64,000 bases of DNA from Candidatus Azambacteria bacterium (lineage in GTDB: Bacteria > Patescibacteriota > Minisyncoccia > UBA10092). The stretch covers positions 38,397-102,396 of the forward strand of contig DMPO01000006.1 of NCBI GenBank assembly GCA_003455995.1, written 5' to 3'. Numbering within the stretch: position 1 is the first letter of the stretch; the number at the start of each line of letters is the position of its first letter. Of this stretch, positions 12,705 through 55,151 are shown piece by piece. The position numbers were made by a program, and so were the translations under genes. The notes beneath the pieces were generated by a model. That model did not search any database. It had not been told where the DNA came from and saw only the letters and a list, made by a program, of their open reading frames with translations.

Positions 12705-12705
12705 A

Positions 12706-35091: not shown

Positions 35092-35115
35092 GCCCCGTTA
35101 ACTAACGGGGCTTTT
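35092..35115 (+). terminator. Rho-independent terminator (shared convergent-gene region)
   Basis: GCCCCGTTA-loop-TAACGGGGC followed by TTTT. Overlaps the stop codon of the minus-strand flippase gene. Confidence 0.65.
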
Positions 35116-37690: not shown

Positions 37691-37718
37691 GGTTTAAGTG
37701 TAAAACTTAAAGCGAAAA

Positions 37719-39920
<2,202 letters not shown>

Positions 39921-39921
39921 T

Positions 39922-40779
39922 ATGGCAAATATGAAGTTTAGAATTGTTTTCGGTCTTATTCTGCTCATTCTGGTTTTTATCGGCTTTTTTGTCGGTCTGC
40001 CTTATTTTCTCCGGAAAATTCAGTTGAGCCCGATTTTTGAATTTCCCAAATTCACATTTATGTCCGCGCCCGCGCTATCTACATCCACGCCAGGATTTTG
40101 GAATTTTTTTAGTCCGGCGCAAGTTCAATCGCGGCGCCAATCCATTGTCCAATCCGGCAATTCGATATTTCAAAATAAAATCAATATCGCCGGCGTTTCC
40201 AAATACGGCAGAGAGAGCGTTAATTTGAGCAACGCTTCCCCCTCCCTGGTTAATATTACCGGATGGAGAATCAAGAGCAGAAACAGAGGGGAATTTGTTA
40301 TTGGCAAGGGGCTGGCGCTTCCCAATTTCAGCTCAGATCTTTCCGATGTTTGGCTTTCTGCGGGCGAATCGGCCGAAATCATAGCCGATATCAGCCCTTT
40401 GGCGAACAATTTCAGAATCAATAGTTGTTTCGGAGGTATAAGCGAATTATACAATTTGGGATATGGATTTAGTTGCCCGGCCATCGCGCCGATGGATTTC
40501 GCCGGCATGGACAGCGCCTGCCAGGATTTGATAATGCGCAGTTCGTCCTGCCGCGCGCCAAGCGACAATATATTGAACCAACAATCTTCAAAATGCCGGA
40601 CATGGTTTGAAAAAAATGTGAATTATCCAGCCTGCGTTTCCAAACATATCAACGACAGGAATTTCTATGGAGGATGGAAAATTTTTACCGGCAACAAAAT
40701 GCAAATTTTCGACCCGCTTCACGACAAAATCGAACTTCGCGATCGCGCGGGACTGGCGGTCGACTCTTATGAGTATTGA
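39922..40779 (+). CDS. Hypothetical signal-anchored protein, possible lamin-tail-like beta domain
   Basis: N-terminal TM helix. The segment NLSNASPSLVNITGWRIKSRNRGEFVIGKG weakly resembles LTD domains. Several Cys in the C-terminal half. Confidence 0.35.
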   Translation: MANMKFRIVFGLILLILVFIGFFVGLPYFLRKIQLSPIFEFPKFTFMSAPALSTSTPGFWNFFSPAQVQSRRQSIVQSGNSIFQNKINIAGVSKYGRESVNLSNASPSLVNITGWRIKSRNRGEFVIGKGLALPNFSSDLSDVWLSAGESAEIIADISPLANNFRINSCFGGISELYNLGYGFSCPAIAPMDFAGMDSACQDLIMRSSSCRAPSDNILNQQSSKCRTWFEKNVNYPACVSKHINDRNFYGGWKIFTGNKMQIFDPLHDKIELRDRAGLAVDSYEY

Positions 40780-40787
40780 ACGATTTT

Positions 40788-41399
40788 TTATTTTTTGGCG
40801 GTTATCCAAATATTCATGCCGCACTCAAAATAACCGGATCGCAAGTTTTCTTTGGCAAACGGGATTTTTCCAAATATTTTTTTAATTTCTAAAGGCGTAT
40901 AAGCATATTTATGCTCCGCGAGTTCCGTAGAACTCACCAAGCGCATTTTAGCCATTATTTTCAGCGGCAACACCGCCCATGTCGATGGAGTGGTTAAAAC
41001 GCATATTCCTTCGGGTTTTAATATTCTATAAATTTCGCCCACAATGGCGAGCGTTTTTTTTGGTTCAATATGTTCAAAAACCGCAAGAATGGTAATCGCG
41101 TCAAAAAAATTATTTTGATAGGGCAGATTGCTTTGACATTCAATATCGTATTCCAAAAAAGAAATCCCATTTTTTTTGAGAATATCTTTTTGGTTGTTGC
41201 CGATTTTATCCAAACCGTATTTTTCGGCAAAATCAACGCCGACAAGAAAAAGCGGAAAACTGCCGCAGCCGATATCGAGAATGCGCCCTTTTCTGCAATT
41301 TAAAGGAATCAGGTTATCGGCCATTTTGCTTCTTTTTTTAGCCAGAAATTTTTCAAGAAGACCGTATCCTCTGGTCACGGTCTGGTTAAAAGGGCTCAT
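40788..41399 (-). CDS. Class I SAM-dependent methyltransferase
   Basis: ILDIGCGSFPLF is motif I. ILAVFEHI is motif II. Confidence 0.65.
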   Translation of the reverse strand: MSPFNQTVTRGYGLLEKFLAKKRSKMADNLIPLNCRKGRILDIGCGSFPLFLVGVDFAEKYGLDKIGNNQKDILKKNGISFLEYDIECQSNLPYQNNFFDAITILAVFEHIEPKKTLAIVGEIYRILKPEGICVLTTPSTWAVLPLKIMAKMRLVSSTELAEHKYAYTPLEIKKIFGKIPFAKENLRSGYFECGMNIWITAKK

Positions 41400-42532
41400 T
41401 TAAGAAAGAGTTGAATAAAATAATCGATGTTAATCATGGGCAAAATATATTTATCCATCGAGAAATTCGCCAAAATGTAAATTATAAAAAACGGGGCGAA
41501 ATAATAAATTCGCGACTCATATTTTTTTAAGAAAATACACGATATTAAAATTACAAAAGGAATCGTAATAAAAAATATCCTTTGAATTATCCCCGGCCAT
41601 AGAAATATGGGCATGATGGAAAAAAACATGGCGGCAATAAAAATCCACCGCTCTTGATTGAATATTTTGACGCCCCGTTTTATTAAAACGCCAATTCCGC
41701 CGATAAATAAGAACCAGCCGAAAGTAAAAAGGGAACCGAAGACCTTGGCGTATGAAAGGAAGTCGAATGATGAATCTTTCATTAAATGTTTGTTAAAAAT
41801 AAGCCAGTCAAAATAACTGTAATGATAATTAACATATATCGAAGCGTGAACCAAAATGGCGGGCAAAACGGCCAAAGCGCCCAGCGGCAATAAATATTTT
41901 ATTAAGTTTTTGAAATTATATCCGCAATAAAATAACAAAGACAAAAAAATGGGAATAAATCCAAAATATCCATATTCTTTAAAAAGCCCGCCCAGTCCCG
42001 TCGCAAGCGCTCCCCATATTAAATATTTTACTTCCCACGTCTTTAAAAAGCGGAAAACAAGAAAAAAGGCGATAATATAAAACATCCAGCCGCCCATATC
42101 CATCAAATAAGCCGGCCCGAAAGTTATCATGGCGTAGTTGGCGGCCAAAAGAAGCATTCCGCAGAAGGCGACTTTTCGGCTTTCAAAAAATTCTTCCAAA
42201 AGCTTGTAAAAAAACAAATTCGCGATTATGTAAAAAACGATATTCATAAACAGCCAGGCATTCAATATATCGCCGAAAATATAGGAAAGAAAAATAACGG
42301 TTTGGAGGCCGGCAAAAGTCGTGAGAATCCTGTTAGGAACAAAATCCAAGGGAATTTTTCCGGTTTTTAAAACATCCACGCTTTTCAAATATGAAATGCT
42401 GTCGCCGAAAAGATGCGGCGGAATAATTATGAAAGAAACGCCGACCAGCGCCAAAAGGAAAATTGAGATGTACAAATAATGGAAACGGCCAATCATGATA
42501 ATAAATATAGCGGTTGTTTGCTTTTTTTTCAA
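41396..42532 (-). CDS. Polytopic membrane protein, putative GT-C-type transferase
   Basis: 378 aa and strongly hydrophobic. Divergent from a GT2 lipid-sugar synthase gene. Confidence 0.4.
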   Translation of the reverse strand: MKKKQTTAIFIIMIGRFHYLYISIFLLALVGVSFIIIPPHLFGDSISYLKSVDVLKTGKIPLDFVPNRILTTFAGLQTVIFLSYIFGDILNAWLFMNIVFYIIANLFFYKLLEEFFESRKVAFCGMLLLAANYAMITFGPAYLMDMGGWMFYIIAFFLVFRFLKTWEVKYLIWGALATGLGGLFKEYGYFGFIPIFLSLLFYCGYNFKNLIKYLLPLGALAVLPAILVHASIYVNYHYSYFDWLIFNKHLMKDSSFDFLSYAKVFGSLFTFGWFLFIGGIGVLIKRGVKIFNQERWIFIAAMFFSIMPIFLWPGIIQRIFFITIPFVILISCIFLKKYESRIYYFAPFFIIYILANFSMDKYILPMINIDYFIQLFLK

Positions 42533-42563
42533 TTTTGTTTACTATAAACATATTGCGATTACC

Positions 42564-43280
42564 ATGGATCATTCTAAACAATTCAAAAAACTTTCTATAA
42601 TTATTCCGGCTTACAATGAAGCCCGGACGCTACGGGAAATTATTCGCCGCGTTCAAGCGGTTCAGCTAACTGGCCTTGAAAAAGAGGTCATTGTCGTTGA
42701 CAATGGTTCAATTGACGACACTCCCCTGATTTTAAAGTCGCTTTCAGGAATTCGCGTTCTTACCTTAAACCCCAACCGAGGAAAAGGCGGGGCGGTTAAG
42801 GCCGGTTTTACCGCGGCAACCGGCGACATCCTGATTATTCAAGACGCCGATCTTGAGTACGAACCAAATGATTATCCGGCGGTTATTCGGCCGATTTTGG
42901 AAGGAAAGACCGAAGTAACCGTCGGCATAAGAATAAATCCGAGCATGGAAAGCCGCAGCAATAAATCGTTATACTGGTTAAGCTGGTTTGGCAATAAAAT
43001 GATTACCTGGACAACGAATCTGCTTTATGGAAACAAGGCGGGAGAATATGAGGGATGCTACAAAGCGTTTACCAAAGAACTCATAAGCCAAATTACGGTG
43101 CGCACCGACGATTTTGATTTTGATAATGAATTGATCTGCAAGATTTTGAAAAAGGGCTATAAAACCGTTGATGTCCCGATTCACTATTACCCTCGCAGCT
43201 ATCAAGAAGGAAAAAAAATAAACTGGAAGCACGGTTTTAAAATTCTTTGGACGATTATCAAATACCGTTTTATCAACTAA
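42564..43280 (+). CDS. GT2 polyprenyl-phosphate sugar synthase (DPM synthase-like)
   Basis: LSIIIPAYNEARTL..EVIVVDNGSIDDT..IIQDADLEYEP motifs. Start moved to the ATG at 42564, because the ORF-track start would lie in the divergent gene. Confidence 0.7.
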   Translation: MDHSKQFKKLSIIIPAYNEARTLREIIRRVQAVQLTGLEKEVIVVDNGSIDDTPLILKSLSGIRVLTLNPNRGKGGAVKAGFTAATGDILIIQDADLEYEPNDYPAVIRPILEGKTEVTVGIRINPSMESRSNKSLYWLSWFGNKMITWTTNLLYGNKAGEYEGCYKAFTKELISQITVRTDDFDFDNELICKILKKGYKTVDVPIHYYPRSYQEGKKINWKHGFKILWTIIKYRFIN

Positions 43281-43281
43281 A

Positions 43282-44172
43282 ATGAGATTATCGATAAAAA
43301 AATTAGTTATTCCGCTTGCCGGTTTTGGCATGCGGTTTTTGCCGGTCTCTAAAAACTATCCGAAGGAGATGATCAACTTGGTTGACAGGCCGATCGTACA
43401 ATACTTGGTTCAGGAGGCATGCGAAAGCGGCATTCGCGAAGTTATTTTTGTGGTGAATGGCGGTAAAGATATTATCAAACAATATTTTTCGTCCTACCAA
43501 TACTCGCGCCAGAAAAAGGCCTGCCGGGTCTCGCCAATCGCTTGCGAGAATTTAAAAGAACTTGAGAGCTTGCTTCGCGTTATACGTTTTAGGATCATCA
43601 AAAAAAATATGACGCTCGGCGACGGCCATTCAATTCTATGCGCGGAATCGTATCTTGTCCGCGAAAAGGCGTTCGCGGTTACTATGGGAGATCTGCTCGG
43701 CCTTGGTCCAAAGCCGTTCTTAAGCCAGCTTGCCGAACAATACGCTTTAACCGGCGCGCCGATGGTCTCCGTTGAAAGAGTGCCGAAAGAGGCCGTTTCG
43801 CGCTTTGGGATTATCGCGCCCGCCGAATCGCGCGCCGGATTGCATCGCGTGCTCGATGTGGTGGAGAAACCAAGGCCGGAAATCGCTCCCAGCAATTTGG
43901 CGCTCACCGGAAAATATATTCTGACTCCGGCAATCTTTCCCTATCTCAAGCGCGCCTATCGGGAAAAAACCGATAATGAAGTCCGTCTGGCCACGGCCTT
44001 GAAATTTTACGCCGCCGATTACCCGCTCTTCGCCTACGAATGCGAGGGAAAAATCCAAGACACCGGAAACAAATTGGATTTGCTGAAAGCGACGGTAAAT
44101 TTCGGTCTGACCCACAAAAATTTCGGCGCCGAATTTAAAAAATTTTTAAAATCTCTCCCGCTGGAGAATTAG
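43282..44172 (+). CDS. galU: UTP--glucose-1-phosphate uridylyltransferase
   Basis: KLVIPLAGFGMRFLPVSKNYPKEM..VDRPIVQYLVQEA and VVEKPRPEIAPSNLALTGKYIL match GalU family signatures. Confidence 0.8.
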   Translation: MRLSIKKLVIPLAGFGMRFLPVSKNYPKEMINLVDRPIVQYLVQEACESGIREVIFVVNGGKDIIKQYFSSYQYSRQKKACRVSPIACENLKELESLLRVIRFRIIKKNMTLGDGHSILCAESYLVREKAFAVTMGDLLGLGPKPFLSQLAEQYALTGAPMVSVERVPKEAVSRFGIIAPAESRAGLHRVLDVVEKPRPEIAPSNLALTGKYILTPAIFPYLKRAYREKTDNEVRLATALKFYAADYPLFAYECEGKIQDTGNKLDLLKATVNFGLTHKNFGAEFKKFLKSLPLEN

Positions 44173-44174
44173 CC

Positions 44175-44786
44175 ATGAAAGGACAACTTATTAAGATCAC
44201 GCCGATCTCAAAAAAATTCCATAATGTTTTTCGTTTCTCCCGGAGAACTGCCGAGGTTGCCTTGCGTGGCGGGAAAAAATATAGATTTGACCGGCATGTT
44301 TTTGAAACCGGTCCGGCAGTGAGCGTTTTGCCCTATTTTTTTGATGAACAAAAAAAAGAGTGGATGGTTGTTCTTGTCCGCCAATACCGTCCCGCAGTTG
44401 ACGCTCTTTGCCTTGAGGCCCCGGGCGGGCTTTTAGAAAAAGGAGTGAATCCGCGACTTGAGATGACTCGCGAGCTCTTTGAAGAGGCGGGGATTCGCGT
44501 TTCTTCTCAAAAAATTAAATACATGGGGTATCAGCATCTTGCCAGCTCTTTTTGCGATCAGGTCGTCCATTTAGGGAGCGCTCACCTTTCTGATGTGAAA
44601 AGCGCCGCTAATCTTTTAGCGAGTTTACGAATACACAATGGTTTAATGAGCGAGCATGAATTTACCGAGGTGGTAGTGGTTCCGCTTTTGGACGCTCTTC
44701 GGAAACCAAGGCTTGTAACATACACCTTGGCCAAATATCAAATTCTTCAGCTTGCCGATGAACTGAAAATTTCTTGGCATAAATAA
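44175..44786 (+). CDS. NUDIX hydrolase
   Basis: GGLLEKGVNPRLEMTRELFEEAGI matches the Nudix box GX5EX7REUXEEXGU. Confidence 0.65.
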   Translation: MKGQLIKITPISKKFHNVFRFSRRTAEVALRGGKKYRFDRHVFETGPAVSVLPYFFDEQKKEWMVVLVRQYRPAVDALCLEAPGGLLEKGVNPRLEMTRELFEEAGIRVSSQKIKYMGYQHLASSFCDQVVHLGSAHLSDVKSAANLLASLRIHNGLMSEHEFTEVVVVPLLDALRKPRLVTYTLAKYQILQLADELKISWHK

Positions 44787-44803
44787 AAACCTAGGCGGAA
44801 GGC

Positions 44804-46333
44804 CTAGGTCGGAACAGTTGAACGAAGAATATAAGGAGGGATTTTGCCTTTTGAAGCGTCGAAGGCGTTTTCGGGAACATCGGTTTGATATGGCTGGCCG
44901 AGCTTTTCCCTCAGTTCTCGTTCTGTGTCGTTTCGGAGGCGCCGCAAGTCGTCGGCCGAAAGCGTTTCGGTAAATGCGGAAACCTTTCCCAAACCCTTCC
45001 GGTCTCCCCGGTCGCCTTTGTAAAACATGAAGTCCGAAAAGTAGTCCGTCTCTCCGGAATAAAGCTTGTCGCCGGTTTTAGGCGCGCGATAAACCCAAAC
45101 ATCCTTACGGCCGAGGACGGGTTCGGCTTCATCGTAGTATGGCGTTCCGGGATAGACCGTGATTCGGGTAAGGTCAAACGATTCCGGTCGAACTTGCAGA
45201 ATAAAATCTTTTGTTTCTTTGATTGTTTTTTCGGTTTCTCCGGGATGGCCGATTGACATCAGGGCCTTAACGCGCAGGCCGTTTCGCCGGGCGGTTTCCG
45301 CGCATCTGTAATTGTCTTCAAGCGTTGCGCGCTTGTTGATGTTGCGAAGAATTCGCGGCGATCCCGATTCAAAACCGGTCAGAATTTCCCGGAAACCAGC
45401 TTCATACATCGCTGTGGCTTGGCGGTCATTAAATAACTCCGCCTTAATGAAGCCGCGCAGCCGCCACTTAATGTCCAATTCTTTGCCAAGGGATATGATG
45501 GCATTCATTAATCGGACCAAATTATCGCCGCCGATATTCAGTTCGTCATCGTAGAACATCGCGCCGCACTCTTGGGCCACTTTTTCTTTATAGGCCGTCT
45601 GCATAAACCGATATACTTCCCGCAGTTCGGCAATAACATTATCCGCGCTTCGGAAACGAAGCGTTCGGAGAAACGCCGTATTCCGCCCGCCGCAAAAACC
45701 GCATCCGAAAGGGCACCCCAGCTGGGCAATGACGCTCGTTGTCGGGGCCCCGTCAATTAAGTAGCGGTAACTGCCGAGATCAATTAAATCCCGCGCCGGA
45801 AAAGGCAAATTCTCTAATTCTTCTCGTTTCAGAAAAAGGCTGGAATTTCGATTGTCGGCGTCAATAATTTGGCCATGCTTCGCTTGAAAAATATCAAAAA
45901 CAGCTCGTTCTCCATCTCCTGCGACTAAAACATCAAAATAATCGAAGATGCGCCGCAATGCTCGGGTTGCCCTTCCGGCAATTTTCTTTTCGCGCTCCCG
46001 GCGATAAGCGGCGTTCACGAGCGTGCCGTGCGGTCCGCCCAAAACCAGCTTGGCCGATGGCCGCATGCGTCTGATGGTCTCGGCAATGAAGCCGCTTGCC
46101 GGAAGCTGGGGGCTTGTCGCCGTAATCCCAAAAATATCCGTATTGTTTTCTTGGCAGTATTGTCCAACAACTTCCAAGTAGCGAGCCACTCCGGATAAGT
46201 CAAGCAGGTCAACATCGATTTGATTTCTTCGCAGCATAGCCGCGACCTTTAAAATACCTAAATGCGGGATCATCCGATCGTCGGAAAGGATGAGCGATGA
46301 AGGAATAACCAGGCACATTTTCATTGAGTCCAC
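44804..46333 (-). CDS. B12-binding domain radical SAM enzyme (class B rSAM)
   Basis: QLGCPFGCGFCGG is the CxxxCxxC motif. N-terminal cobalamin-binding-like domain. Visibly GC-rich relative to flanking genes. Confidence 0.8.
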   Translation of the reverse strand: MDSMKMCLVIPSSLILSDDRMIPHLGILKVAAMLRRNQIDVDLLDLSGVARYLEVVGQYCQENNTDIFGITATSPQLPASGFIAETIRRMRPSAKLVLGGPHGTLVNAAYRREREKKIAGRATRALRRIFDYFDVLVAGDGERAVFDIFQAKHGQIIDADNRNSSLFLKREELENLPFPARDLIDLGSYRYLIDGAPTTSVIAQLGCPFGCGFCGGRNTAFLRTLRFRSADNVIAELREVYRFMQTAYKEKVAQECGAMFYDDELNIGGDNLVRLMNAIISLGKELDIKWRLRGFIKAELFNDRQATAMYEAGFREILTGFESGSPRILRNINKRATLEDNYRCAETARRNGLRVKALMSIGHPGETEKTIKETKDFILQVRPESFDLTRITVYPGTPYYDEAEPVLGRKDVWVYRAPKTGDKLYSGETDYFSDFMFYKGDRGDRKGLGKVSAFTETLSADDLRRLRNDTERELREKLGQPYQTDVPENAFDASKGKIPPYILRSTVPT

Positions 46334-46390
46334 CTCCGTTAAATATTTTTTAGTGTTAAAGTTCTACCGTTAAGTTATCCACAGATTTAA

Positions 46391-46418
46391 TGGACAATCA
46401 AGTTTTATGTTCTATAAT
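46391..46418 (+). promoter_or_regulatory. Candidate sigma70 promoter TGGACA-N16-TATAAT
   Basis: -35 at 46391-46396 and a perfect -10 at 46413-46418, upstream of the signal-peptide start at 46482. Confidence 0.4.
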
Positions 46419-46481
46419 AAACAACGAGCGCGTGAAAACGCAAGTAAGAATTTTATAATTAATTTAATTAAAATAAATACA

Positions 46482-48395
46482 ATGTTACGAAAACATTTGG
46501 TAATTGTCGGGCTATTTTTGGCTGTAGGTGTTTTGTTTTTTAATGTTTCATCCGCCAATGCCATTATCAGAAGTTGGAACGGCGCGGGCGATGGAATGAC
46601 TTGGACAGATCCTCTAAACTGGGGCGGCGTGTCAAATGCCAATTATCCCGGTGAACTTGCTCCCGATGATGCGGTAATCGCATCCAGCACATCTGCGCTT
46701 GGTCCGCTTGGAGTCAATGCCACTTCCACAATTCCTTTTGGCGTTAACACACTGCAGATTAAAAACGGCTGGACTCTTTACATCGGCGGCACTCTGGGAG
46801 CGTCAAGCACGGTTTCTGTTTTGGGCACCAGCACCTTGAAACTCGCTACCAGCACTTACGGCTCCGGCACTCTGAATCTTGGCCAAACCGATCCTGGAGC
46901 TCCTTTATCTATAGCGACTGCCAATGCTACCTTTACTGCGGCAACTGGCACAGTTGCTTATATCGGTGGTGGCACTGCTAGTATTATTGTTGCTACAACC
47001 ACATTTTATAATTTAAGCTTAACCCCAACCTCTACTACCGCCACGGCGGCGATTCGCACTTATATATTTGGATCACCTACCGCAGCTCAAGTGCGGCAGG
47101 TAGCTACTACGACGGTATCCAATGTTTTTACTGTTAGTAGTGGCGCGAAAGCGGATTTTAATGGCCTGACCGATCTTTTGCTTTCCGGTTCCGGAACAGC
47201 GTTTTCCAAAGCCAATGGCGACTTTATACAAAGTTCCAAAATTGTTTATTCTTCGGCTTCAGCCACCAATATCGCCACGGGCACTTATGCCAATCTTGAA
47301 TTGACCGGCGCGGCGACAAAAACGCTTTTAGGCAATACTACCGCGACCAGCACGGTGACGATTCCGGCTAGCGGCACTTTGGCCATCAGCACCTATACAT
47401 TTACCGCCACCGGCGCTACTTGGACTAATAGCGGCACCGTAACGGAAAACACGGGCGGTAAAATTACGCTCGCCGCCGCCGGCGTACTCTCCAATTCCGC
47501 GGGCGGTTCGGCCGTAACGGCTTTCGGCAATGCCGATACTCTTCCGGTGATTCATATACAGATTACGGATACCAGTTTGAATCTTTTGGCGGCATCGGCC
47601 GAAACCCAAACGGCCACGGTAACTGGGACGAGCGGTATCACCGATTCCGAAACGGTTACTTTGACTGAAACGGGAATTGCCACGGGCATCTTCAGAGGCA
47701 GTCTTTCTTTCCAGCTTTCTGGCACCGATGTTAGTGGAGCCGTGGATTTCCAAGGAGGCGGCACCCTTAGCTATGCTTACACCGATTCGCAGGACTCAAG
47801 CGACACTCAATCCGGTTCAGCGTCATTTACCGGTACCGCGCCCGGAAGCGGCAGTGGTAGCGTGATCGTCTCGGTCACTCCGACTACTCCAGCGACACCA
47901 GCGGTGCCAGCTACCCCGGCTGTTTCGGGAGAATCTCCTGCCACTCCAGCAACGCCTGCGACTCCGGCTGCGCCTTCTCTTGAAAGCGTTCAAACCAAGA
48001 TCGCGAGCGTGATTGCTAAAATGGCAACTTTATCGGCGAGTCCCTCCGCCTCCGAGTTAACCGATGTTCAGGCGCAGATTGCGGCGATTTTGGCGGACAT
48101 TCAGGCCATTCAGACAACGGCGGCTCCTCAAGGCGCGGCTCTCGGTTATAATTTTGTTCGACCGCTCGCTTTGGGCATTAGGCATGGCGATGTAACAAAT
48201 CTTCAAAAGGCTCTAAAAACCGATTCGTCCATTTATCCTGAAGGAAAAGTAACGGGATACTTTGGTCCGGCGACGCTATCGGCAGTTAAGAAGTTTCAGG
48301 AGAAATACGGAATCGCTTCCAAAGGCCAGTCGGGATATGGCGTGGTTGGTCCGAAGACCAGAACGAAACTAAACGAACTTTACGGCGCGAAATAA
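46482..48395 (+). CDS. Secreted repeat-rich surface protein with C-terminal peptidoglycan-binding domain (PG_binding_1)
   Basis: Signal peptide MLRKHLVIVGLFLAVGVLFFNVSSANA. Long Thr/Ser/Gly/Ala-rich beta-repeat region. PATPAVPATPA proline linker. The C-terminal segment LALGIRHGDVTNLQKALK...GYFGPATLSAVKKFQEKYG is typical PG_binding_1. The ORF-track start at 46407 is probably too far upstream. Confidence 0.6.
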   Translation: MLRKHLVIVGLFLAVGVLFFNVSSANAIIRSWNGAGDGMTWTDPLNWGGVSNANYPGELAPDDAVIASSTSALGPLGVNATSTIPFGVNTLQIKNGWTLYIGGTLGASSTVSVLGTSTLKLATSTYGSGTLNLGQTDPGAPLSIATANATFTAATGTVAYIGGGTASIIVATTTFYNLSLTPTSTTATAAIRTYIFGSPTAAQVRQVATTTVSNVFTVSSGAKADFNGLTDLLLSGSGTAFSKANGDFIQSSKIVYSSASATNIATGTYANLELTGAATKTLLGNTTATSTVTIPASGTLAISTYTFTATGATWTNSGTVTENTGGKITLAAAGVLSNSAGGSAVTAFGNADTLPVIHIQITDTSLNLLAASAETQTATVTGTSGITDSETVTLTETGIATGIFRGSLSFQLSGTDVSGAVDFQGGGTLSYAYTDSQDSSDTQSGSASFTGTAPGSGSGSVIVSVTPTTPATPAVPATPAVSGESPATPATPATPAAPSLESVQTKIASVIAKMATLSASPSASELTDVQAQIAAILADIQAIQTTAAPQGAALGYNFVRPLALGIRHGDVTNLQKALKTDSSIYPEGKVTGYFGPATLSAVKKFQEKYGIASKGQSGYGVVGPKTRTKLNELYGAK

Positions 48396-48416
48396 TACGG
48401 AAAGCAAGTAATAAAA

Positions 48417-48447
48417 ACTTCCCCCGCTTGCGGGGGAAGTTTTTATT
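48417..48447 (+). terminator. Rho-independent terminator
   Basis: ACTTCCCCCG-CTTG-CGGGGGAAGT 10-bp stem followed by TTTTATT. Confidence 0.85.
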
Positions 48448-48478
48448 GTGATAACATAGAGAAATAATTAATAAAAAT

Positions 48479-49162
48479 ATGGAAGAACAAAATAAATTTT
48501 TGATACCGGCAGCAATTGTTTTTGCCGGCATTGTCATCGCGGTGGCGGTGGTCTATTCAACCAATGATAAATCGCGAAATGCCAATACGGATAATACGAA
48601 AATAGCGGCGCTGACGGCATTGCCGGCAATTTCTTCAAGCGATTTCGTTTTAGGCGAACAAAATGCGCCGGTAACGGTGATAGAATACGGCGATTTTCAA
48701 TGTCCGTTTTGCGGCAAGTTTTTTAGAGATACCGAATCGGTATTGCGGGAAAAATATATCAAAACCGGCAAAGTGAGATTTATTTATCGCGATTTTGCCT
48801 TTTTGGGGCAAGAATCAACTTGGGCGTCCAACGCCGCGCGATGCGCCGGAGAACAGAATAAATTCTGGCAATATCACGATTATCTCTATAATAACCAACA
48901 GGGGGAAAATCAAGGCGCTTTCGGCAAGGAAAATTTAAAAAAGTTCGCGTCGGCTTTGGGACTCGATAGAAGTAAATTCGACACTTGTCTCGATTCGGAA
49001 AAATATAATGATTTGATCCAGAAAGAAACCAAAGAAGGCGGCGAAGCCGGAGTGCAGGGGACGCCGGCAAATTTTGTGAATGGCGCGCTTTATGCGGGCG
49101 CTTTGCCGGTCGCTTCATTTACTAAAATTATTGACGACGAATTGAGCAAATTGGGAAAATAA
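48479..49162 (+). CDS. DsbA-like thiol:disulfide oxidoreductase (thioredoxin fold), membrane-anchored
   Basis: N-terminal TM helix. FQCPFCGKF is the CxxC active site. The rest is DsbA/Thioredoxin_4-like. Confidence 0.7.
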   Translation: MEEQNKFLIPAAIVFAGIVIAVAVVYSTNDKSRNANTDNTKIAALTALPAISSSDFVLGEQNAPVTVIEYGDFQCPFCGKFFRDTESVLREKYIKTGKVRFIYRDFAFLGQESTWASNAARCAGEQNKFWQYHDYLYNNQQGENQGAFGKENLKKFASALGLDRSKFDTCLDSEKYNDLIQKETKEGGEAGVQGTPANFVNGALYAGALPVASFTKIIDDELSKLGK

Positions 49163-49166
49163 AATT

Positions 49167-49403
49167 ATGCCGAAAATTAGGATATACACAACGCCCGAGT
49201 GCGTTTACTGCAGAATGGCAAAGGAATTTTTTGAAAAAAACAACATTTCTTATGAAGAAAAAGATGTTTCAGTTGATGATGAGGCGCGCGAAGAAATGAT
49301 TGAAAAATCCGGCCAGATGGGCGCGCCGGTTATGGATATTGACGGTAAGATTATCATCGGGTTTGATGAAGAGGAGTTATCAAAAATTTTAGCCGTAAAA
49401 TAA
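49167..49403 (+). CDS. Glutaredoxin-like protein (NrdH/YruB type)
   Basis: 78 aa. YTTPECVYCRMAKEFF is the CxxC motif. Glutaredoxin fold length. Confidence 0.7.
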   Translation: MPKIRIYTTPECVYCRMAKEFFEKNNISYEEKDVSVDDEAREEMIEKSGQMGAPVMDIDGKIIIGFDEEELSKILAVK

Positions 49404-49404
49404 C

Positions 49405-50328
49405 ATGTACGATTTGATTATTATCGGCGGCGGCCCCGCCGGGGCCGCCGCCGGAATATACGCGGCGCGGAAAAAATTAAAAACCTTAATGATCGCCGCC
49501 GATTTCGGCGGACAAGCGCTGGCTTCCGGCAATATCGAGAATTGGATTGGCGTTGAAAAAATGACGGGTCTTGAATTTGCCAAAATGCTCGAAAAACATG
49601 TTCGAGCGCAAGAAAGCATTGAAATAAAAATTTCGGAGAAAGTTGTTACCGTTGAAAAAATATCGGACGGGTTCGATATTGTAACCGACAAAAATAATAA
49701 TTATCAGGCCAAGGTCTTAATTATCGCTTCCGGAGGCCATCGCCGCCGCTTGGATGTTCCAGGCGGCGCCCAATTTGAAGGCAAGGGCGTTTCTTATTGC
49801 GCTACCTGCGACGCGCCGGTTTTTAAAAACAAGCGGGTGGCGGTTATCGGCGGCGGCAATGCCGGCTTGGAGACGGCAATCGACCTAATGCCGTATGCCG
49901 AAAAAATTTACCTGATAAACAGAAAGAATTTTTTTACCGGGGATGATGCGTTGCGGGAAAAAATAAAGCGGTTTAGTAAAATAAGCGCCATAATGAATGC
50001 GGATGTTCAGAAAATTTCTGGCGAAAAATTTGTTTCGGGTATAGAATATCTGGATGGAGGCGATAATTTGGTTAAAAAGTTGGAAGTGGAAGGAGTGTTT
50101 GTTGAGATTGGTTCGGTTCCGAATTCCGAGTTTGTAAAACATCTTGTGGAAACAAATCCAAAGGGGGAGGTTATTGTTAACCATAAAACGGGAGCCGCAA
50201 GTTGTCCCGGAGTATTTGCGGCCGGCGATGTTACCGACGCGATTTACAAGCAAAATAATGTTTCCGCCGGGGACGCCATTAAAGCCGTTCTCTCGGCGCA
50301 TAATTATTTACTCAACATTAAAATATGA
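49405..50328 (+). CDS. trxB: Thioredoxin-disulfide reductase
   Basis: IIGGGPAGAAAGIYAAR is the FAD motif. CATCDAPVF is the redox-active disulfide. GGGNAGLETA is the NADPH motif. Confidence 0.85.
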   Translation: MYDLIIIGGGPAGAAAGIYAARKKLKTLMIAADFGGQALASGNIENWIGVEKMTGLEFAKMLEKHVRAQESIEIKISEKVVTVEKISDGFDIVTDKNNNYQAKVLIIASGGHRRRLDVPGGAQFEGKGVSYCATCDAPVFKNKRVAVIGGGNAGLETAIDLMPYAEKIYLINRKNFFTGDDALREKIKRFSKISAIMNADVQKISGEKFVSGIEYLDGGDNLVKKLEVEGVFVEIGSVPNSEFVKHLVETNPKGEVIVNHKTGAASCPGVFAAGDVTDAIYKQNNVSAGDAIKAVLSAHNYLLNIKI

Positions 50329-51383
50329 CTCGAATAGCAATTAACGGTTTTGGGCGGATCGGAAGGGTCTTTTTTCGTTGCGCTTTTGGCCAATCGGATA
50401 TAGAAATTGTCGCCATAAATGATTTGGGCGCCGCCGAAAATATGGCGTATCTTTTGAAATATGACTCGGTTTACGGCCCTTATGAAAAATCGGTAGAGTC
50501 CGGTCCGGAAGTTCTGATTGTTGACGGCAAAGAAATTAAAATGATGCGGCAAAAAGATCCCGCTCTATTGCCATGGGGCGATTTGAATATCGATATCGTC
50601 ATCGAATCGACCGGGGTTTTTGAAACGTATGAAAAATCGGCGGCGCATTTAACCGCCGGCGCCAAGCGCGTGATTATTGCCGCGCCCGCCAAAGATGACG
50701 CTACCCCTACGGCTACTCCGAATGTCGGGGAAGAATTTTTGAAATTGAATAAAATAACTTCGGCCGCTTCTTGCACCACTAACGCGGCGACTCCGATAAT
50801 GTCTGCGCTGTCAAAAAATCCCGGCATTAAAAAAGCCGTTTTGAATACCGTCCATGCCTATACGGCGTCCCAAAAGGTAATTGATGGTTCCGATAATAAT
50901 AATGATTACAGAAAAAACAGAGCGGCGGCGCAAAATATTATTCCTTCGACAACCGGCGCCGCGCTTACGGCTACAAAGGTCTTTCCGCCGCTAGAAGGAA
51001 AATTTGATGGCGTCTCTTTAAGGGTGCCGGTAATTTGCGGTTCCATTATTGATTTTACTTTTGTAGCCGAAAGACCGACTTCCGTTGAAGAAATAAACAA
51101 TATTTTGAAAAAAGCCGCGCAAGAAAAACAATGGCAGGAAATTCTGGCGGTTACCGAAGAACAGCTGGTTTCCAGCGACATTCTTAAAAATCCCAATGGT
51201 TCCATCGTCGATCTCAATATGACCAAGGTCGTTGACGGCGATTTGGTTAAAATTTTATCATGGTATGACAATGAATGGGGGTATGCAAACCGTTTAGTAG
51301 AACAGGTAATTAGAGTAGGAAGAACACTAGAAGGTGGAATAGCTCCAACTGACCCATTAACTCTAAGTCATACAAATGGATAA
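50325..51383 (+). CDS. gap: Glyceraldehyde-3-phosphate dehydrogenase (type I)
   Basis: INGFGRIGR, ASCTTN (catalytic Cys), WYDNEWGY C-terminal motif. The last ~25 codons form an unusual C-terminal extension written in a different codon style. Confidence 0.85.
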   Translation: MTRIAINGFGRIGRVFFRCAFGQSDIEIVAINDLGAAENMAYLLKYDSVYGPYEKSVESGPEVLIVDGKEIKMMRQKDPALLPWGDLNIDIVIESTGVFETYEKSAAHLTAGAKRVIIAAPAKDDATPTATPNVGEEFLKLNKITSAASCTTNAATPIMSALSKNPGIKKAVLNTVHAYTASQKVIDGSDNNNDYRKNRAAAQNIIPSTTGAALTATKVFPPLEGKFDGVSLRVPVICGSIIDFTFVAERPTSVEEINNILKKAAQEKQWQEILAVTEEQLVSSDILKNPNGSIVDLNMTKVVDGDLVKILSWYDNEWGYANRLVEQVIRVGRTLEGGIAPTDPLTLSHTNG

Positions 51384-51996
51384 ATCTAAAAATAAAAAAA
51401 AGATAAAACAAATTAGTTATTTTGGTTTTGCAGATGCAGCTCCTAATGATCCACTTTATAAAGAAGCTTTTGAAGTTGCCAAATATATGGCCGAAAAAGG
51501 TTTTGTTGCAATAAATGGAGGAGGACCTGGAACAATGAGAGCAGTTTCAGAAGGAGCCAAAGCTGGTAAAGGAACCGCAGTTGGGGTTACTTTTTATCCT
51601 AAAGATATTACAAATTTTGAAGGAAGAGATCCTGAAAATCCAATGGATATGGAAATAAAATGTCCTAATTATCTTGAAAGAACTTTAAAACTTTTAGAAT
51701 TAGGTGATGCATATGTCTTTTTTAGAGGAGGGACAGGAACAATTTCTGAATTTGGTATGGCATGGGGCTTAGCTAGACTTTATTTTGGCCATCACAAGCC
51801 TCTAATTTTATTTGGAGATTATTGGAACAATATTATTAAAAGTTTTATAGATAATATGAGAATAAGATCGGAAGACTTGAAAGTATATAAAGTTGTTAAT
51901 AGTCCAGAAGAAATTATTGACGCTATTGAATACTTTGATAGGGTGTTAACTGAAAACAAAGTTATTCATAATGATGAGAAGGCTTTTCAGATATAA
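51376..51996 (+). CDS. LOG family protein (TIGR00730 Rossmann-fold nucleotide-binding / cytokinin riboside 5'-monophosphate phosphoribohydrolase-like)
   Basis: INGGGPGTMRAVSEGA and FRGGTGTISEF are the two conserved LOG motifs. Confidence 0.7.
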   Translation: MDKSKNKKKIKQISYFGFADAAPNDPLYKEAFEVAKYMAEKGFVAINGGGPGTMRAVSEGAKAGKGTAVGVTFYPKDITNFEGRDPENPMDMEIKCPNYLERTLKLLELGDAYVFFRGGTGTISEFGMAWGLARLYFGHHKPLILFGDYWNNIIKSFIDNMRIRSEDLKVYKVVNSPEEIIDAIEYFDRVLTENKVIHNDEKAFQI

Positions 51997-52025
51997 ATTT
52001 TAGTTTATTTTTATATTTAATATTC

Positions 52026-52874
52026 ATGAAATACACAATTGAAGATCTGGAGAAAATTGCTATAGAGGTAAGAGAGGATATTGTCAAAATGATTTTAAAA
52101 GCAGGTGCAGGACATCCTGCAGGATCTTTAGGTATGGTTGAAGTCTTTGTGGCACTTTACTATGCCATTTTAAATCATGATCCTAAAAATCCCAATTGGG
52201 AAGATAGGGATAGATTAATTCTTTCAAATGGCCATATTTGTCCCGCTCGTTATGCAGTAATGAGTCATGTAGGTTATTTTGAACATAAAGAACTTTTAAA
52301 ATTTGGTGGATTTGGCAGAATTTTGCAAGGTCATCCGGACAAAAGATTTTTACCTTCTCTTGAAACAACTTCGGGGCCATTAGGCTGTGGACTTGCTCAA
52401 GGATGTGGTATTGCCATAGGGGCTAAGATGGATAAAAAAAGGTTTAGAACTTTTGTAATAACTTCAGATGGGGAACATGATGAAGGAAATCATTGGGAGG
52501 CTGTTGCCTTTGCTGGGAAAAACAATTTAAGTAATTTAACTTTAATTGTTGATAGAAATAATATTCAGATTGATGGATTTACTGAAAATGTGATGCCACT
52601 TGAACCTTTAGCTTCTAAATACCAAGCTTTTGGTTGGTCTACTATAGAAATTGATGGTCATAATTTTTCTGAAATTGTTAATGCAGCAAATAAAGCTCGT
52701 GCAATTTATGAAAACCCAACAGTAATTATTGCAAAAACAATTCCAGGTAAAGGAGTTCCTTTTATGGAGGGAAATCCTAATTGGCATGCAAAGGCACCAA
52801 GTTCAGATGAAGCAAAACAGGCAATTATTGATATCAGAACAATGCAGGGGAAAATCAAAACTTATGGGGAATAA
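52026..52874 (+). CDS. Transketolase, N-terminal (ThDP-binding) subunit
   Basis: GHPAGSLGMVEV, DRLILSNGHICPARYAV, GHPD...TSGPLGCGLAQGCGIAIG and SDGEHDEGNHWEA are split-transketolase signatures. Confidence 0.85.
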   Translation: MKYTIEDLEKIAIEVREDIVKMILKAGAGHPAGSLGMVEVFVALYYAILNHDPKNPNWEDRDRLILSNGHICPARYAVMSHVGYFEHKELLKFGGFGRILQGHPDKRFLPSLETTSGPLGCGLAQGCGIAIGAKMDKKRFRTFVITSDGEHDEGNHWEAVAFAGKNNLSNLTLIVDRNNIQIDGFTENVMPLEPLASKYQAFGWSTIEIDGHNFSEIVNAANKARAIYENPTVIIAKTIPGKGVPFMEGNPNWHAKAPSSDEAKQAIIDIRTMQGKIKTYGE

Positions 52875-52886
52875 ATAAAAATTATT

Positions 52887-53882
52887 ATGGTTAACAATAA
52901 ATTAAACTTATCAGATCAATTATTTAAAAAAGATATAGAAAAAAAATTCATGAGAGACGGATTTGGTGAGGGACTTTTAACGGCAGGTGAAAAGGATGAA
53001 AGAATTGTTGTTTTAACAGCTGATTTAAAAGAATCAACAAGGGTTAATCTTTTTGCAGATTCCTTTCCAGAAAGATTTATTGAAGTTGGAGTTTCCGAAC
53101 AAGCGATGGTAACAATTGCATCAGGTCTTGCTAATTACGGAAAAATTCCATTTTGCAGTTCATATGCTGTCTTTAGCCCGGGAAGAAATTGGGAACAGAT
53201 TAGAACAACAATTGGAATAGATAATTATCCTGTAAAAATAATTGGAGCGCAATCAGGACTTAATATTGGTCATTATGGAGTAACACATCAAGGCCTGGAA
53301 GACATTGCTCTTGCCCGTGTTATTCCAAACATGAATGCTATCGTTCCAAGTGATTATATTGAGGCAAAAAAAGCGACTTTAGAGATTGCAAAGAGTGATA
53401 AACCTTACTATATGAGACTACCTAGAATTGATAGTCCTGTCTATACCACAGATAAAACTCCATTTAAAATTGGAAAGGCCAATATTTTAACTGAAAGTAA
53501 AATTCCAGAAGTAGCAATTATTGCAACTGGTTTATTGGTTTATAAAGCGCTTTTAGCATATAAAGAACTAGAAAAAAATGGAATAGAAACAATTGTAGTA
53601 AATATGCATACAATAAAACCTTTAGATGAAGAAACAGTTATAAGAAGTGCAAAATTAACAGGAGCTGTTGTTACAGTTGAAGAACATCAGATAATTGGTG
53701 GATTGGGATCCGCGATATCAGAAAGTTTATCTAAAAATTTTCCTGTACCAATGGAAATATTGGGAGTAAAAGATAGGTTTGGACAATCAGGAACTCCAAA
53801 AGAGTTATTTGAAGAATATAATTTGACTAAGGAAGACATTATTAAAGCCGTTAAAAAAGTTATAAGCAGGAAAAATTCTTAA
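52887..53882 (+). CDS. Transketolase, C-terminal (pyrimidine-binding) subunit
   Basis: FIEVGVSEQAMVTIASGLA and the downstream TK_C-like domain. Follows the N-terminal subunit after a 12-nt gap. Confidence 0.85.
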   Translation: MVNNKLNLSDQLFKKDIEKKFMRDGFGEGLLTAGEKDERIVVLTADLKESTRVNLFADSFPERFIEVGVSEQAMVTIASGLANYGKIPFCSSYAVFSPGRNWEQIRTTIGIDNYPVKIIGAQSGLNIGHYGVTHQGLEDIALARVIPNMNAIVPSDYIEAKKATLEIAKSDKPYYMRLPRIDSPVYTTDKTPFKIGKANILTESKIPEVAIIATGLLVYKALLAYKELEKNGIETIVVNMHTIKPLDEETVIRSAKLTGAVVTVEEHQIIGGLGSAISESLSKNFPVPMEILGVKDRFGQSGTPKELFEEYNLTKEDIIKAVKKVISRKNS

Positions 53883-53884
53883 AA

Positions 53885-54163: not shown

Positions 54164-54186
54164 AATGTCATTATAATGTATATCAT

Positions 54187-55149: not shown

Positions 55150-55151
55150 AT

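What the first reader, a model, noticed from the sequence alone, without database searches (positions are those of the whole stretch)
44804..46333. Second, stand-alone GC-rich B12-radical SAM gene beside galU/NUDIX and the surface-protein gene
A second class B rSAM (CPFGCGFCGG) is convergent with the NUDIX hydrolase and divergent from the PG-binding surface protein. It is conspicuously GC-rich compared with the flanking galU/GT2 genes. Two B12-rSAM paralogs in one glycan region suggest repeated radical C-methylation of glycan or surface-polymer components. The compositional contrast suggests separate acquisition.
Basis: partly seen in the sequence, partly recalled or inferred. Interest (0 to 1): 0.55.

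Follow-up and report, generated by a model that had tools for sequence, protein, structure and literature searches.

The report
Conserved B12-radical SAM gene, not imported
This is a real vitamin-B12-type radical SAM enzyme gene from a large, widespread, uncharacterised family that sits beside sugar-transfer genes; its high GC content is a trait of the whole family, not a sign that this gene arrived separately.

Summary
The gene is real. It has a B12-binding domain, a radical SAM domain and the CPFGCGFC motif. It is convergent with NUDIX and divergent from the PG-binding surface protein. The organism is Candidatus Azambacteria (Patescibacteria).

It is the most GC-rich of 47 native genes (0.510 vs 0.407±0.048, z=2.1). 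It is not an outlier in its 24-kb neighbourhood (z=1.6; GC3 z=1.3), and galU has higher GC3.

The block GT2-galU-NUDIX/rSAM is conserved, with congruent identities, in at least five other Patescibacteria. The gene falls in a Patescibacteria-only clade. Orthologs are the top or second most GC-rich gene in 12 of 14 other AT-rich loci. Separate acquisition is therefore not supported.

The two rSAMs are 25% identical and belong to different old families.

No member of the target's family is characterised. Members are about 50% identical across eight or more phyla. The most frequent immediate neighbour is a small GT2 that resembles polyprenyl-phosphate-sugar synthases. My best guess, which is inferred, is radical modification (probably C-methylation) of a lipid- or nucleotide-linked hexose for surface glycans.

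Separately, the window is chimeric after position 51286.

The parts
44804..46324 (-). B12-binding/radical SAM protein gene, 506 aa.
   Evidence: ORF; Pfam PF02310 and PF04055 above gathering score; SD GGAGG 8 nt before the ATG at 46324; the exact 506-aa product is on record in 96 index blocks of the collection (24 contigs read).
45692..45715 (-). CxxxCxxC [4Fe-4S]/SAM motif (CPFGCGFC)
   Evidence: Translation; C207, C211 and C214 invariant in 30 homologs.
46028..46039 (-). GGPH: Gly-Gly motif at the end of predicted strand beta4 of the Rossmann domain (pocket for the DMB tail in base-off cobalamin binding)
   Evidence: Translation; invariant G99 G100 P101 H102; strand E95-99 in the model; motif defined in PMC9204698.
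45908..45919 (-). GDGE: Gly-Glu at the start of predicted helix alpha5 of the Rossmann domain
   Evidence: Translation; invariant G139 D140 G141 E142; helix H141-149; motif defined in PMC9204698.
46106..46129 (-). [quoted passage not shown]
   Evidence: Translation; T71, T73, P75 and Q76 invariant; strand E67-71 in the model; motif defined.
44788..44810 (.). GC-rich hairpin between the convergent NUDIX and rSAM genes; terminator-like on the minus strand and overlapping the rSAM stop codon
   Evidence: Consensus scan; sequence.
44175..44786 (+). NUDIX hydrolase, last gene of the GT2-galU-NUDIX operon; conserved convergent partner of the rSAM in the type-A Patescibacteria clade
   Evidence: Pfam; NCBIfam weak YffH/NudE/NudK-like hits; synteny.
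43282..44172 (+). GalU-like sugar-1-phosphate uridylyltransferase
   Evidence: PF00483; TIGR01099 216.8 bits, below the 326.8 cutoff; synteny.
42495..43280 (+). Small GT2 glycosyltransferase resembling polyprenyl-phosphate-sugar synthases. Public gene calls start at 42564 (238 aa) or 42495 (261 aa). It is the commonest neighbour of this rSAM family across phyla.
   Evidence: PF00535; best matches AglJ, ArnC, DPMS and PpgS; adjacency statistics; 48% identical to the Nitrospira GT2 next to the rSAM.
41396..42532 (-). PMT_2 (GT-C type) polytopic membrane glycosyltransferase, divergent from the GT2; about 10 predicted TM segments
   Evidence: Pfam; TM count; public gene calls are 352 and 366 aa.
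40788..41399 (-). Class I SAM methyltransferase, overlapping the PMT_2 gene by 4 nt
   Evidence: Pfam.
46407..48395 (+). Ser/Thr/Ala-rich secreted protein with a C-terminal PG_binding_1 domain, divergent from the rSAM. The likely true start is M26 (46482, 637 aa). This neighbour is specific to Azambacteria and is not conserved with the rSAM.
   Evidence: Pfam; single N-terminal TM/signal segment; 637-aa call in L085; other loci have PMT_2 or multi-TM genes at this position.

Best explanation
The gene encodes a member of a large, strongly conserved and functionally uncharacterised subfamily of cobalamin-type (class B) radical SAM enzymes. In this Azambacteria genome it was inherited vertically as part of a conserved block: a GT2-galU-NUDIX operon with the rSAM convergent to it.

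Its GC-richness is intrinsic to the gene family. About half comes from an Arg/Asp/Gly-rich, Lys/Ile/Asn-poor protein, and about half from GC-ending synonymous codons. It does not mark separate import.

Inferred mechanism. GalU makes a UDP-hexose. The small GT2 transfers the hexose to polyprenyl phosphate. The rSAM uses its [4Fe-4S] cluster and SAM to generate a 5'-deoxyadenosyl radical, abstracts a hydrogen from an unactivated sugar carbon of the lipid-linked (or nucleotide-linked) hexose, and transfers a methyl group from methylcobalamin. Less likely, it rearranges the ring. A GT-C/PMT_2-type membrane transferase then delivers the modified sugar to a surface acceptor.

Shown: domain architecture, motifs, fold, conservation, synteny, composition statistics. 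Inferred: cobalamin use, the substrate, the chemistry.
For: Architecture. Pfam domains. CxxxCxxC plus invariant GG and GE motifs at the predicted beta4 and alpha5 positions. Model pLDDT 89.6, with best PDB folds AprD4, TsrM, MgmA, OxsB, TokK and CysS.

Family. The top 120 hits are 49% or more identical over about 99% of the length. They come from Patescibacteria, Omnitrophota and Elusimicrobiota, and none carries a specific name. 408 of 185,579 species genomes encode a relative, also in Nitrospira, Acidobacteria, Planctomycetota, Latescibacterota and Verrucomicrobia.

Vertical inheritance. Conserved four-gene synteny with congruent identities. Patescibacteria-only clade in an NJ tree where phyla form coherent groups. 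The exact protein and gene order recur in many independent assemblies.

Composition. Target GC z=2.1 against native genes but 1.6 against the local block; codon distance within range. Expected GC from amino acids is 0.463 vs a mean of 0.411; synonymous excess is +0.046, with galU at +0.050. Across 66 loci, gene GC regresses on flank GC with slope 0.59. In 14 other low-GC loci the ortholog ranks first in 8 and in the top two in 12, while the neighbouring GT2 shows no excess.

Glycan link. A GT2 is the immediate neighbour in 25 of 72 loci, and a GT2 or GT4 in 38 of 72. GT2 frequency is 0.19 at position +-1 vs 0.04-0.08 at positions +-2 to +-5. The GT2 resembles AglJ, ArnC, DPMS and PpgS. Polytopic PMT_2, Wzy_C or GT-C-like proteins are nearby. 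Flagellin genes follow the rSAM in Latescibacterota. The best NCBIfam match is HpnJ, which acts on a lipid-linked sugar made by a GT2.
Against: No member of the family has been studied, and no curated model is reached: HpnJ 103 bits vs 577, PhpK 100 vs 600.

The closest solved fold, AprD4, does not bind cobalamin and is a dehydratase. HpnJ, OxsB and BchE are not methylases. Neither cobalamin use nor methylation is established.

In Patescibacteria the rSAM is on the opposite strand from GT2-galU-NUDIX, so co-transcription is excluded there. Glycosyltransferases are common in these regions generally, so adjacency is only about 3-fold enriched. About half of the loci have no GT as immediate neighbour.

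The raised GC3 remains unexplained by constraint on the protein. The tree is a distance tree without support values.
Confidence: 0.6

Rival explanations
1. Horizontally acquired gene: the rSAM was inserted on its own, from a GC-richer donor, next to resident galU, NUDIX and surface-protein genes.
For: Highest GC of all ORFs analysed in the window. Own transcription unit on the opposite strand with its own terminator hairpin. The family occurs in many GC-rich phyla. GC3 is raised relative to flanks in many AT-rich Patescibacteria.
Against: Conserved synteny with congruent divergence of all four genes in at least five other Patescibacteria. Patescibacteria-only clade. Not an outlier in its local block, and galU shares the synonymous GC bias. 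No tRNA, no repeats bracketing the gene, and no integrase or transposase among the neighbours scanned against Pfam. The GC excess recurs in 14 independent low-GC loci, which would need many separate recent transfers.
Confidence: 0.08
2. Non-methylating sugar rearrangement: like HpnJ or calditol synthase, the enzyme contracts the ring of a GT2-installed, lipid-linked hexose into a carbocyclic polyol head group. Alternatively it dehydrates a sugar diol, like AprD4.
For: The best curated-model match is HpnJ, which follows the GT2 HpnI in hopanoid side-chain synthesis. AprD4, a sugar diol dehydratase, is the best sequence and fold match in the PDB. Several class B enzymes are not methylases. The GT2-rSAM pairing mirrors HpnI-HpnJ.
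Against: All these matches are remote: about 17-19% identity and scores far below cutoffs. No deacetylase (HpnK-like) or hopanoid gene is conserved nearby. The GG and GE cobalamin motifs are invariant, unlike what is expected for a cobalamin-free AprD4-type enzyme. Most characterised class B enzymes are methylases.
Confidence: 0.2
3. The enzyme acts on something other than a glycan precursor (a membrane lipid chain, a peptide or protein, or an RNA), and its position next to glycosyltransferases is incidental to cell-envelope gene neighbourhoods.
For: About half of the loci have no GT as immediate neighbour. In Elusimicrobiota it follows a TlyA/FtsJ-like methyltransferase and a response regulator. 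Class B rSAMs modify lipids and proteins too. In the window it diverges from a surface-protein gene.
Against: GT2 frequency peaks at the immediately adjacent position (0.19 vs 0.04-0.08) and does so in different phyla with different gene orders. The GT2 partners are homologous across phyla: 48% identity between Azambacteria and Nitrospira. The surface-protein neighbour is not conserved.
Confidence: 0.12

Closest known systems
HpnJ (hopanoid-associated B12-binding radical SAM protein, TIGR03471)
   Same: Best curated-model match (E 1.5e-29 over residues 67-404). Same two-domain architecture. Works downstream of a GT2 (HpnI) on a lipid-linked hexosamine.
   Different: 103 bits against a 577.6 cutoff. 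No hopanoid genes nearby. HpnJ is proposed to contract a ring, not methylate. No HpnK-like deacetylase is conserved next to this family.
AprD4 (radical SAM 1,2-diol dehydratase, PDB 6fd2)
   Same: Best PDB match by sequence (E 1e-16) and by fold (TM 0.64/0.71). Sugar substrate.
   Different: 18-19% identity. NF033070 scores 72.7 vs a cutoff of 500. AprD4 does not bind cobalamin, whereas this family keeps invariant GG and GE motifs.
Structurally defined cobalamin-dependent rSAM enzymes: the methylases TsrM, TokK, CysS and MgmA, and the ring-contracting OxsB
   Same: Same fold order: Rossmann domain, partial TIM barrel, C-terminal domain. GxSxL-like, GG and GE motif positions are present.
   Different: 14-17% identity. 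Their substrates (tryptophan, carbapenem, peptide, protein glutamine, nucleotide) and gene contexts are unrelated to glycosyltransferases.
MoeK5 and GenK/Fms7 (B12-rSAM sugar C-methyltransferases of moenomycin and aminoglycosides)
   Same: Precedent for radical C-methylation of a sugar carbon, for MoeK5 on a lipid-linked saccharide. MoeK5 groups with HpnJ and Fom3 in the published similarity network.
   Different: I did not compare sequences directly (none were available to me). Those are secondary-metabolite enzymes of Actinobacteria, not cell-envelope genes of uncultivated phyla.
GtrB/ArnC/DPMS plus GT-C three-component lipid-linked monosaccharide pathways
   Same: The neighbouring GT2 best matches AglJ, ArnC, DPMS and PpgS and is paired with a PMT_2 membrane transferase.
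   Different: Those systems have no radical SAM component. The GT2 here lacks predicted TM helices and reaches no curated cutoff.

Membership tests
Class B (cobalamin-dependent) radical SAM enzymes | CxxxCxxC motif in a radical SAM (partial TIM barrel) domain | tested here: met
   CPFGCGFC at residues 207-214; PF04055 63.1 bits vs cutoff 29.5; cysteines invariant in A1.
Class B (cobalamin-dependent) radical SAM enzymes | N-terminal Rossmann-type B12-binding domain | tested here: met
   PF02310 45.7 bits vs cutoff 32.1. The model shows five strands alternating with helices in residues 5-149. Folds onto TsrM, OxsB and TokK.
Class B (cobalamin-dependent) radical SAM enzymes | Base-off cobalamin motifs: Gly-Gly on beta4, Gly-Glu at the start of alpha5, GxSxL-like beta3-alpha3 loop (PMC9204698) | tested here: met
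   G99-G100, G141-E142 and G69-x-T71-x-T73 sit at the predicted positions. All but G69 (at least 90% conserved) are invariant in 30 homologs. This rests on sequence and predicted structure only.
Class B (cobalamin-dependent) radical SAM enzymes | Actual cobalamin binding, and methyl transfer or another cobalamin-dependent reaction | not testable with these tools
   Needs purified protein. AprD4 shows that a related fold can lack cobalamin.
HpnJ (TIGR03471) | Score at or above the curated equivalog cutoff | tested here: not met
   103.3 bits vs 577.6.
HpnJ (TIGR03471) | Hopanoid biosynthesis gene context (shc, hpnH/G/I/K) | tested here: not met
   None found among the neighbour families scanned here: the window ORFs between 26022 and 49162 and the neighbour clusters from 72 loci. 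The window ORFs at 1..26021 were not scanned directly; Pfam hits precomputed for the same genes on the public contigs (window 27..12584 and 17394..38131) list no hopanoid family.
PhpK-type P-methyltransferases (TIGR04479) | Score at or above the curated cutoff | tested here: not met
   100.4 bits vs 600. No phosphonate-pathway family among the window ORFs scanned (26022..49162) or in the hits on record for the public-contig gene calls.
BchE anaerobic Mg-protoporphyrin cyclase (JGI's automatic name for homologs) | Score at or above the TIGR02026 cutoff | tested here: not met
   60.8 bits vs 481.35. The name is an over-annotation.
AprD4 diol dehydratases (NF033070) | Score at or above the curated cutoff | tested here: not met
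   72.7 bits vs 500. 18-19% identity in the structural alignment.
Horizontally transferred gene or island | Composition or codon usage significantly different from resident neighbours | tested here: inconclusive
   Rank 1 of 47 native genes, z=2.1. Against the local block z=1.6, GC3 z=1.3, and codon distance within range. galU shares the bias.
Horizontally transferred gene or island | Absent from, or differently placed in, related genomes; phylogeny incongruent with neighbours | tested here: not met
   Synteny and divergence are congruent in at least five Patescibacteria. Patescibacteria-only clade.
Horizontally transferred gene or island | Mobility signatures (tRNA, flanking repeats, integrase or transposase) | tested here: not met
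   No tRNA. No repeats bracketing the gene. No mobility domains among the neighbours scanned against Pfam.

The most novel reading that the evidence does not exclude
The rSAM and its homologous small GT2 form the core of a previously unrecognised, cross-phylum pathway, often accompanied by a GT-C/PMT_2-type membrane transferase. The pathway occurs in Patescibacteria, Elusimicrobiota, Omnitrophota, Nitrospira and others. It would make a radical-modified lipid-linked hexose, either C-methylated or ring-contracted, for decorating the cell surface. That would make surface-glycan synthesis in reduced-genome CPR bacteria, which are not expected to synthesise B12 (my own knowledge, not checked here), depend on cobalamin scavenged from neighbours.
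Probability: 0.3. Interest if true: 0.65.

Novelty: new member of a known kind. Interest (0 to 1): 0.38.

Why it matters
For the scan, this removes a false lead. GC contrast at this gene is not evidence of import, and window-wide composition statistics are distorted by a chimeric join at 51286.

For biology, it flags a sizeable, tightly conserved B12-type radical SAM family with no characterised member. It has relatives in 408 species genomes and about 50% identity across phyla. Its consistent partner is a polyprenyl-phosphate-sugar-synthase-like GT2.

If the inferred role holds, it would add a radical step to lipid-linked monosaccharide pathways. It would also tie envelope decoration in uncultivated groundwater lineages to cobalamin availability. 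The GT2-rSAM pair from cultivable Nitrospira or Elusimicrobia makes this testable.

Tried and rejected
1. Recent duplication of the two rSAMs: rejected. They are 25% identical and belong to distinct families with different taxonomic spread.

2. Gene-specific import: rejected, for the reasons in the full report.

3. Slow amelioration of an ancient import as the cause of raised GC3: rejected. At 50-63% protein identity synonymous sites are saturated.

4. Protein conservation alone as the cause of the GC excess: rejected as a complete explanation. The more conserved GT2 shows no excess, and half of the excess is synonymous.

5. The automatic names 'BchE cyclase' and 'YgiQ' on homologs: rejected.

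6. Cobalamin riboswitch or any other Rfam element near the gene: none at gathering threshold.

7. Literature: three full-text searches found no study of this family or of a GT2-B12-rSAM pair in these phyla.

8. Exact-protein look-ups for three genes of 51.4-64 kb found nothing. This turned out to fit the chimera.

9. One Pfam call failed on wrong coordinates and was repeated.

10. I did not fetch the calditol synthase paper; it is not held.

11. I ran no further search on identifying the AT-rich partner of the chimera.
Full report
**What is there**

The ORF reported at 44804..46333 on the minus strand exists. It carries a Pfam B12-binding domain (residues 23-127, 45.7 bits, cutoff 32.1) and a Radical_SAM domain (residues 203-378, 63.1 bits, cutoff 29.5). 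The motif CPFGCGFC lies at 45692..45715.

The GTG at 46333 overlaps a GGAGG Shine-Dalgarno sequence. An ATG at 46324 sits 8 nt downstream of that sequence. The resulting 506-aa protein is exactly the one on record in public assemblies, so the gene is 44804..46324.

Its stop codon lies 17 nt from the end of a NUDIX gene (44175..44786, plus strand). A GC-rich hairpin at 44788..44810 sits between the two convergent genes. Upstream, the rSAM diverges from a gene for a Ser/Thr/Ala-rich secreted protein with a C-terminal PG_binding_1 domain.

**Organism and integrity of the window**

The exact protein belongs to Candidatus Azambacteria, a Patescibacteria/Parcubacteria lineage from groundwater. Three stretches of the window match long public contigs at 100% identity:

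| Window stretch | Public contig |
|---|---|
| 1..12584 | a 374-kb ENA scaffold |
| 17394..38131 | a 514-kb ENA scaffold; the same gene order is on a 583-kb NCBI contig |
| 34804..51286 | the same 514-kb ENA scaffold and the 585-kb contig MEZB01000001.1 |

At 51286 the match stops. In the public contigs GAPDH is followed by a 213-aa ORF, RpiB, UDG and PurD. In the window, the break falls inside GAPDH at the conserved WYDNEWGY motif. Everything downstream has GC3 near 0.17, against 0.48 before the break.

I conclude that 51287..64000 is a chimeric join to an AT-rich organism. Composition comparisons should therefore use only the 47 genes analysed in the native part of the window.

**Composition**

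| Measure | Target rSAM | Comparison set | Result |
|---|---|---|---|
| Gene GC | 0.510 | 46 other native genes, 0.407 ± 0.048 | z=2.1, rank 1 |
| Gene GC | 0.510 | other genes of the local block 27.4-51.3 kb (block mean gene GC 0.448) | z=1.6 |
| GC3 | 0.539 | same local block | z=1.3 |
| Codon-usage distance to the local block | 0.157 | range of the block, 0.10-0.22 | within range |

The native part has two natural compositional blocks. Genes before 27.4 kb average 0.378, and genes from 27.4 to 51.3 kb average 0.448.

The excess splits into two parts:
- Amino-acid composition alone predicts 0.463, against a mean of 0.411. Arg is 9.7% vs 4.0% and Asp is 7.1% vs 4.4%. Lys, Ile, Asn and Phe are depleted.
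- Synonymous choice adds +0.046, the second largest value in the region. The largest, +0.050, belongs to galU.

So galU is not a compositional contrast to the rSAM; its GC3 (0.566) is higher. Only the GT2 (0.408) and NUDIX (0.451) are clearly lower.

**Is the GC excess a sign of import?**

I fetched 80 loci that encode relatives from species-representative genomes. I then called ORFs, clustered the neighbours, and analysed the loci with a full-length rSAM call and enough flanking genes (72 for gene adjacency, 66 for composition). Four results argue against import.

1. Synteny. The arrangement rSAM> <NUDIX <galU <GT2 is shared with L004 (Harrisonbacteria), L005, L006, L007 and L010, and partly with L008 and L009. 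All four genes diverge in step: GT2 64-74%, galU 50-63%, NUDIX 61-64%, rSAM 53-63%.
2. Phylogeny. In a neighbour-joining tree the window's protein sits in a Patescibacteria-only clade. The clade consists of these syntenic loci plus L033, whose contig ends 0.9 kb upstream of the rSAM and shows only the GT2 neighbour. Nitrospira, Omnitrophota and Elusimicrobiota form their own groups.
3. A family-wide trend. Across 66 loci the rSAM's GC regresses on the mean GC of its flanking genes with slope 0.59 (GC1 0.29, GC2 0.25, GC3 0.86). In low-GC loci it exceeds the flanks by 0.088 on average, and by 0.112 at GC3. In 14 low-GC loci other than the window, the ortholog is the most GC-rich gene in 8 and among the top two in 12. 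The neighbouring GT2, which is more conserved as a protein, shows no excess (-0.007).
4. No mobility signatures. There is no tRNA gene, there are no bracketing repeats, and none of the neighbours scanned against Pfam carries a mobility domain.

The GC-richness is real, but it is a trait of the family in AT-rich genomes. The window is a mild case of it. Why third positions are also raised is not explained; see my note in the notebook.

**The two paralogs**

The other B12-type rSAM (28186..29847, minus strand, CPYNCAFC) is 25% identical to the target over 229 residues. It sits next to a cytidylyltransferase, and a NeuB-type sugar cluster lies nearby. Its own conserved family is found mainly in Patescibacteria, with one hit labelled Nanoarchaeota. 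The two are old, separate families, not duplicates.

**What the family is**

- Conservation. The top 120 database hits are 49-63% identical over about 99% of the length, apart from a 98% near-identical cluster representative. Their names are generic, or automatic ones such as 'BchE cyclase' and 'YgiQ'.
- Spread. 408 of 185,579 species genomes encode a relative, in at least eight phyla.
- Curated families. No NCBIfam model is reached. The best are HpnJ (103 vs 577.6 bits), PhpK (100 vs 600), MgmA (73.8 vs 360) and AprD4 (72.7 vs 500).
- Sequence matches to solved structures. The best are AprD4 (E 1e-16) and MgmA (9ccb).
- Fold. An AlphaFold model built on 30 homologs is confident (pLDDT 89.6, pTM 0.90). 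It folds best onto AprD4 (TM 0.64/0.71), then TsrM, MgmA, OxsB, TokK and CysS, at 14-19% identity.
- Cobalamin motifs. A structural review of these enzymes defines three motifs for base-off binding: a GxSxL-like loop after beta3, Gly-Gly on beta4, and Gly-Glu at the start of alpha5 (PMC9204698). This family has GITAT, GG(PH) and (GD)GE at those predicted positions; all the motif residues are invariant in the 30-sequence alignment except G69, which is at least 90% conserved.

This supports a cobalamin-type enzyme but does not prove it. AprD4 has a related domain and binds no cobalamin (PMC12931638).

**Context and likely role**

- Most frequent neighbour. It is a small GT2 of about 230-260 aa. 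A GT2 is immediately adjacent in 25 of 72 loci, and a GT2 or GT4 in 38 of 72. GT2 frequency is 0.19 at the adjacent position and 0.04-0.08 at positions 2-5.
- Homology of the partners. The window's GT2 is 48% identical to the one directly upstream of the rSAM in Nitrospira.
- What the GT2 resembles. Its best matches are AglJ, ArnC, dolichol-phosphate mannose synthase and PpgS. All of these load a sugar onto polyprenyl phosphate.
- Membrane transferases. Polytopic proteins of the PMT_2, Wzy_C or GT-C-like kind are often nearby. In the window a PMT_2 gene diverges from the GT2.
- Other hints. In two Latescibacterota-type loci the rSAM precedes flagellin genes.

I therefore infer that the enzyme modifies a hexose that GalU activates and the GT2 puts on a lipid carrier, before a membrane transferase moves it to a surface acceptor.

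C-methylation is the commonest chemistry in this class. Ring contraction of a GT2-installed, lipid-linked sugar has precedents in HpnJ and calditol synthase, and I keep it as the main rival. None of this chemistry is shown here.

**Verdict**

This is a real, ordinary member of an uncharacterised but well-populated class-B-type rSAM family. It was inherited together with its GT2-galU-NUDIX neighbours. The glycan-modification idea is plausible, and cross-phylum gene context now supports it, but it remains untested.

Noticed in passing
window 51262-51287 (junction) and 51287-64000: The window is chimeric. Public Azambacteria contigs match 34804..51286 at 100% and then continue with different genes. 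The break lies inside GAPDH at the conserved WYDNEWGY motif, and everything downstream has GC3 of about 0.17 against 0.48 before it. The downstream genes are LOG-like, split transketolase, class I aldolase, PfkB and PBPs, from an unidentified AT-rich organism.
   Followed up: partly
window 27394 (boundary between 1-27.4 kb and 27.4-51.3 kb): There is a natural compositional step inside the Azambacteria genome: mean gene GC 0.378 and GC3 0.381 before, 0.448 and 0.481 after. The two sides are contiguous in independent public assemblies, so the step is not an artefact. The low-GC side is a dense glycosyltransferase/methyltransferase cluster.
   Followed up: partly
window 28186-29847 (-) and homologs P0216, P0242: The first B12-type rSAM belongs to its own conserved family (53% identity or more), found in Patescibacteria with one hit labelled Nanoarchaeota. 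Two homologs are 913-919 aa and carry a LAGLIDADG-type (PF14528) insertion, probably an intein. In the window it sits beside a cytidylyltransferase, near a NeuB, fused-transketolase, HAD and SDR cluster.
   Followed up: no
14 low-GC loci among L006-L081 (listed): Orthologs of the target have raised GC3 (+0.11 over flanks) in AT-rich genomes, while the neighbouring, more conserved GT2 does not. Neither protein constraint nor slow amelioration explains this.
   Followed up: partly
L051 8001-9479 and L065 6896-8380, with downstream genes: In two Latescibacterota-type loci the rSAM ortholog is followed directly by two flagellin genes, hinting at flagellin glycan modification there.
   Followed up: no
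L047, L055, L058, L063, L064 (Nitrospira loci): Nitrospira has a conserved co-directional string: MetG-like gene, secreted 284-aa protein, GT2, rSAM, then a 655-675-aa protein with about 10 TM segments and a soluble C-terminal domain. That last protein has no Pfam hit, only a weak LIC_10190 match, and may be an unrecognised GT-C-type transferase.
   Followed up: partly
window 46407-46481 and 42495-42563: Mechanical ORF starts are probably too far upstream for the surface protein (signal peptide begins at M26, 46482; public aa) and for the GT2 (public aa from 42564). This widens both divergent intergenic regions.
   Followed up: partly
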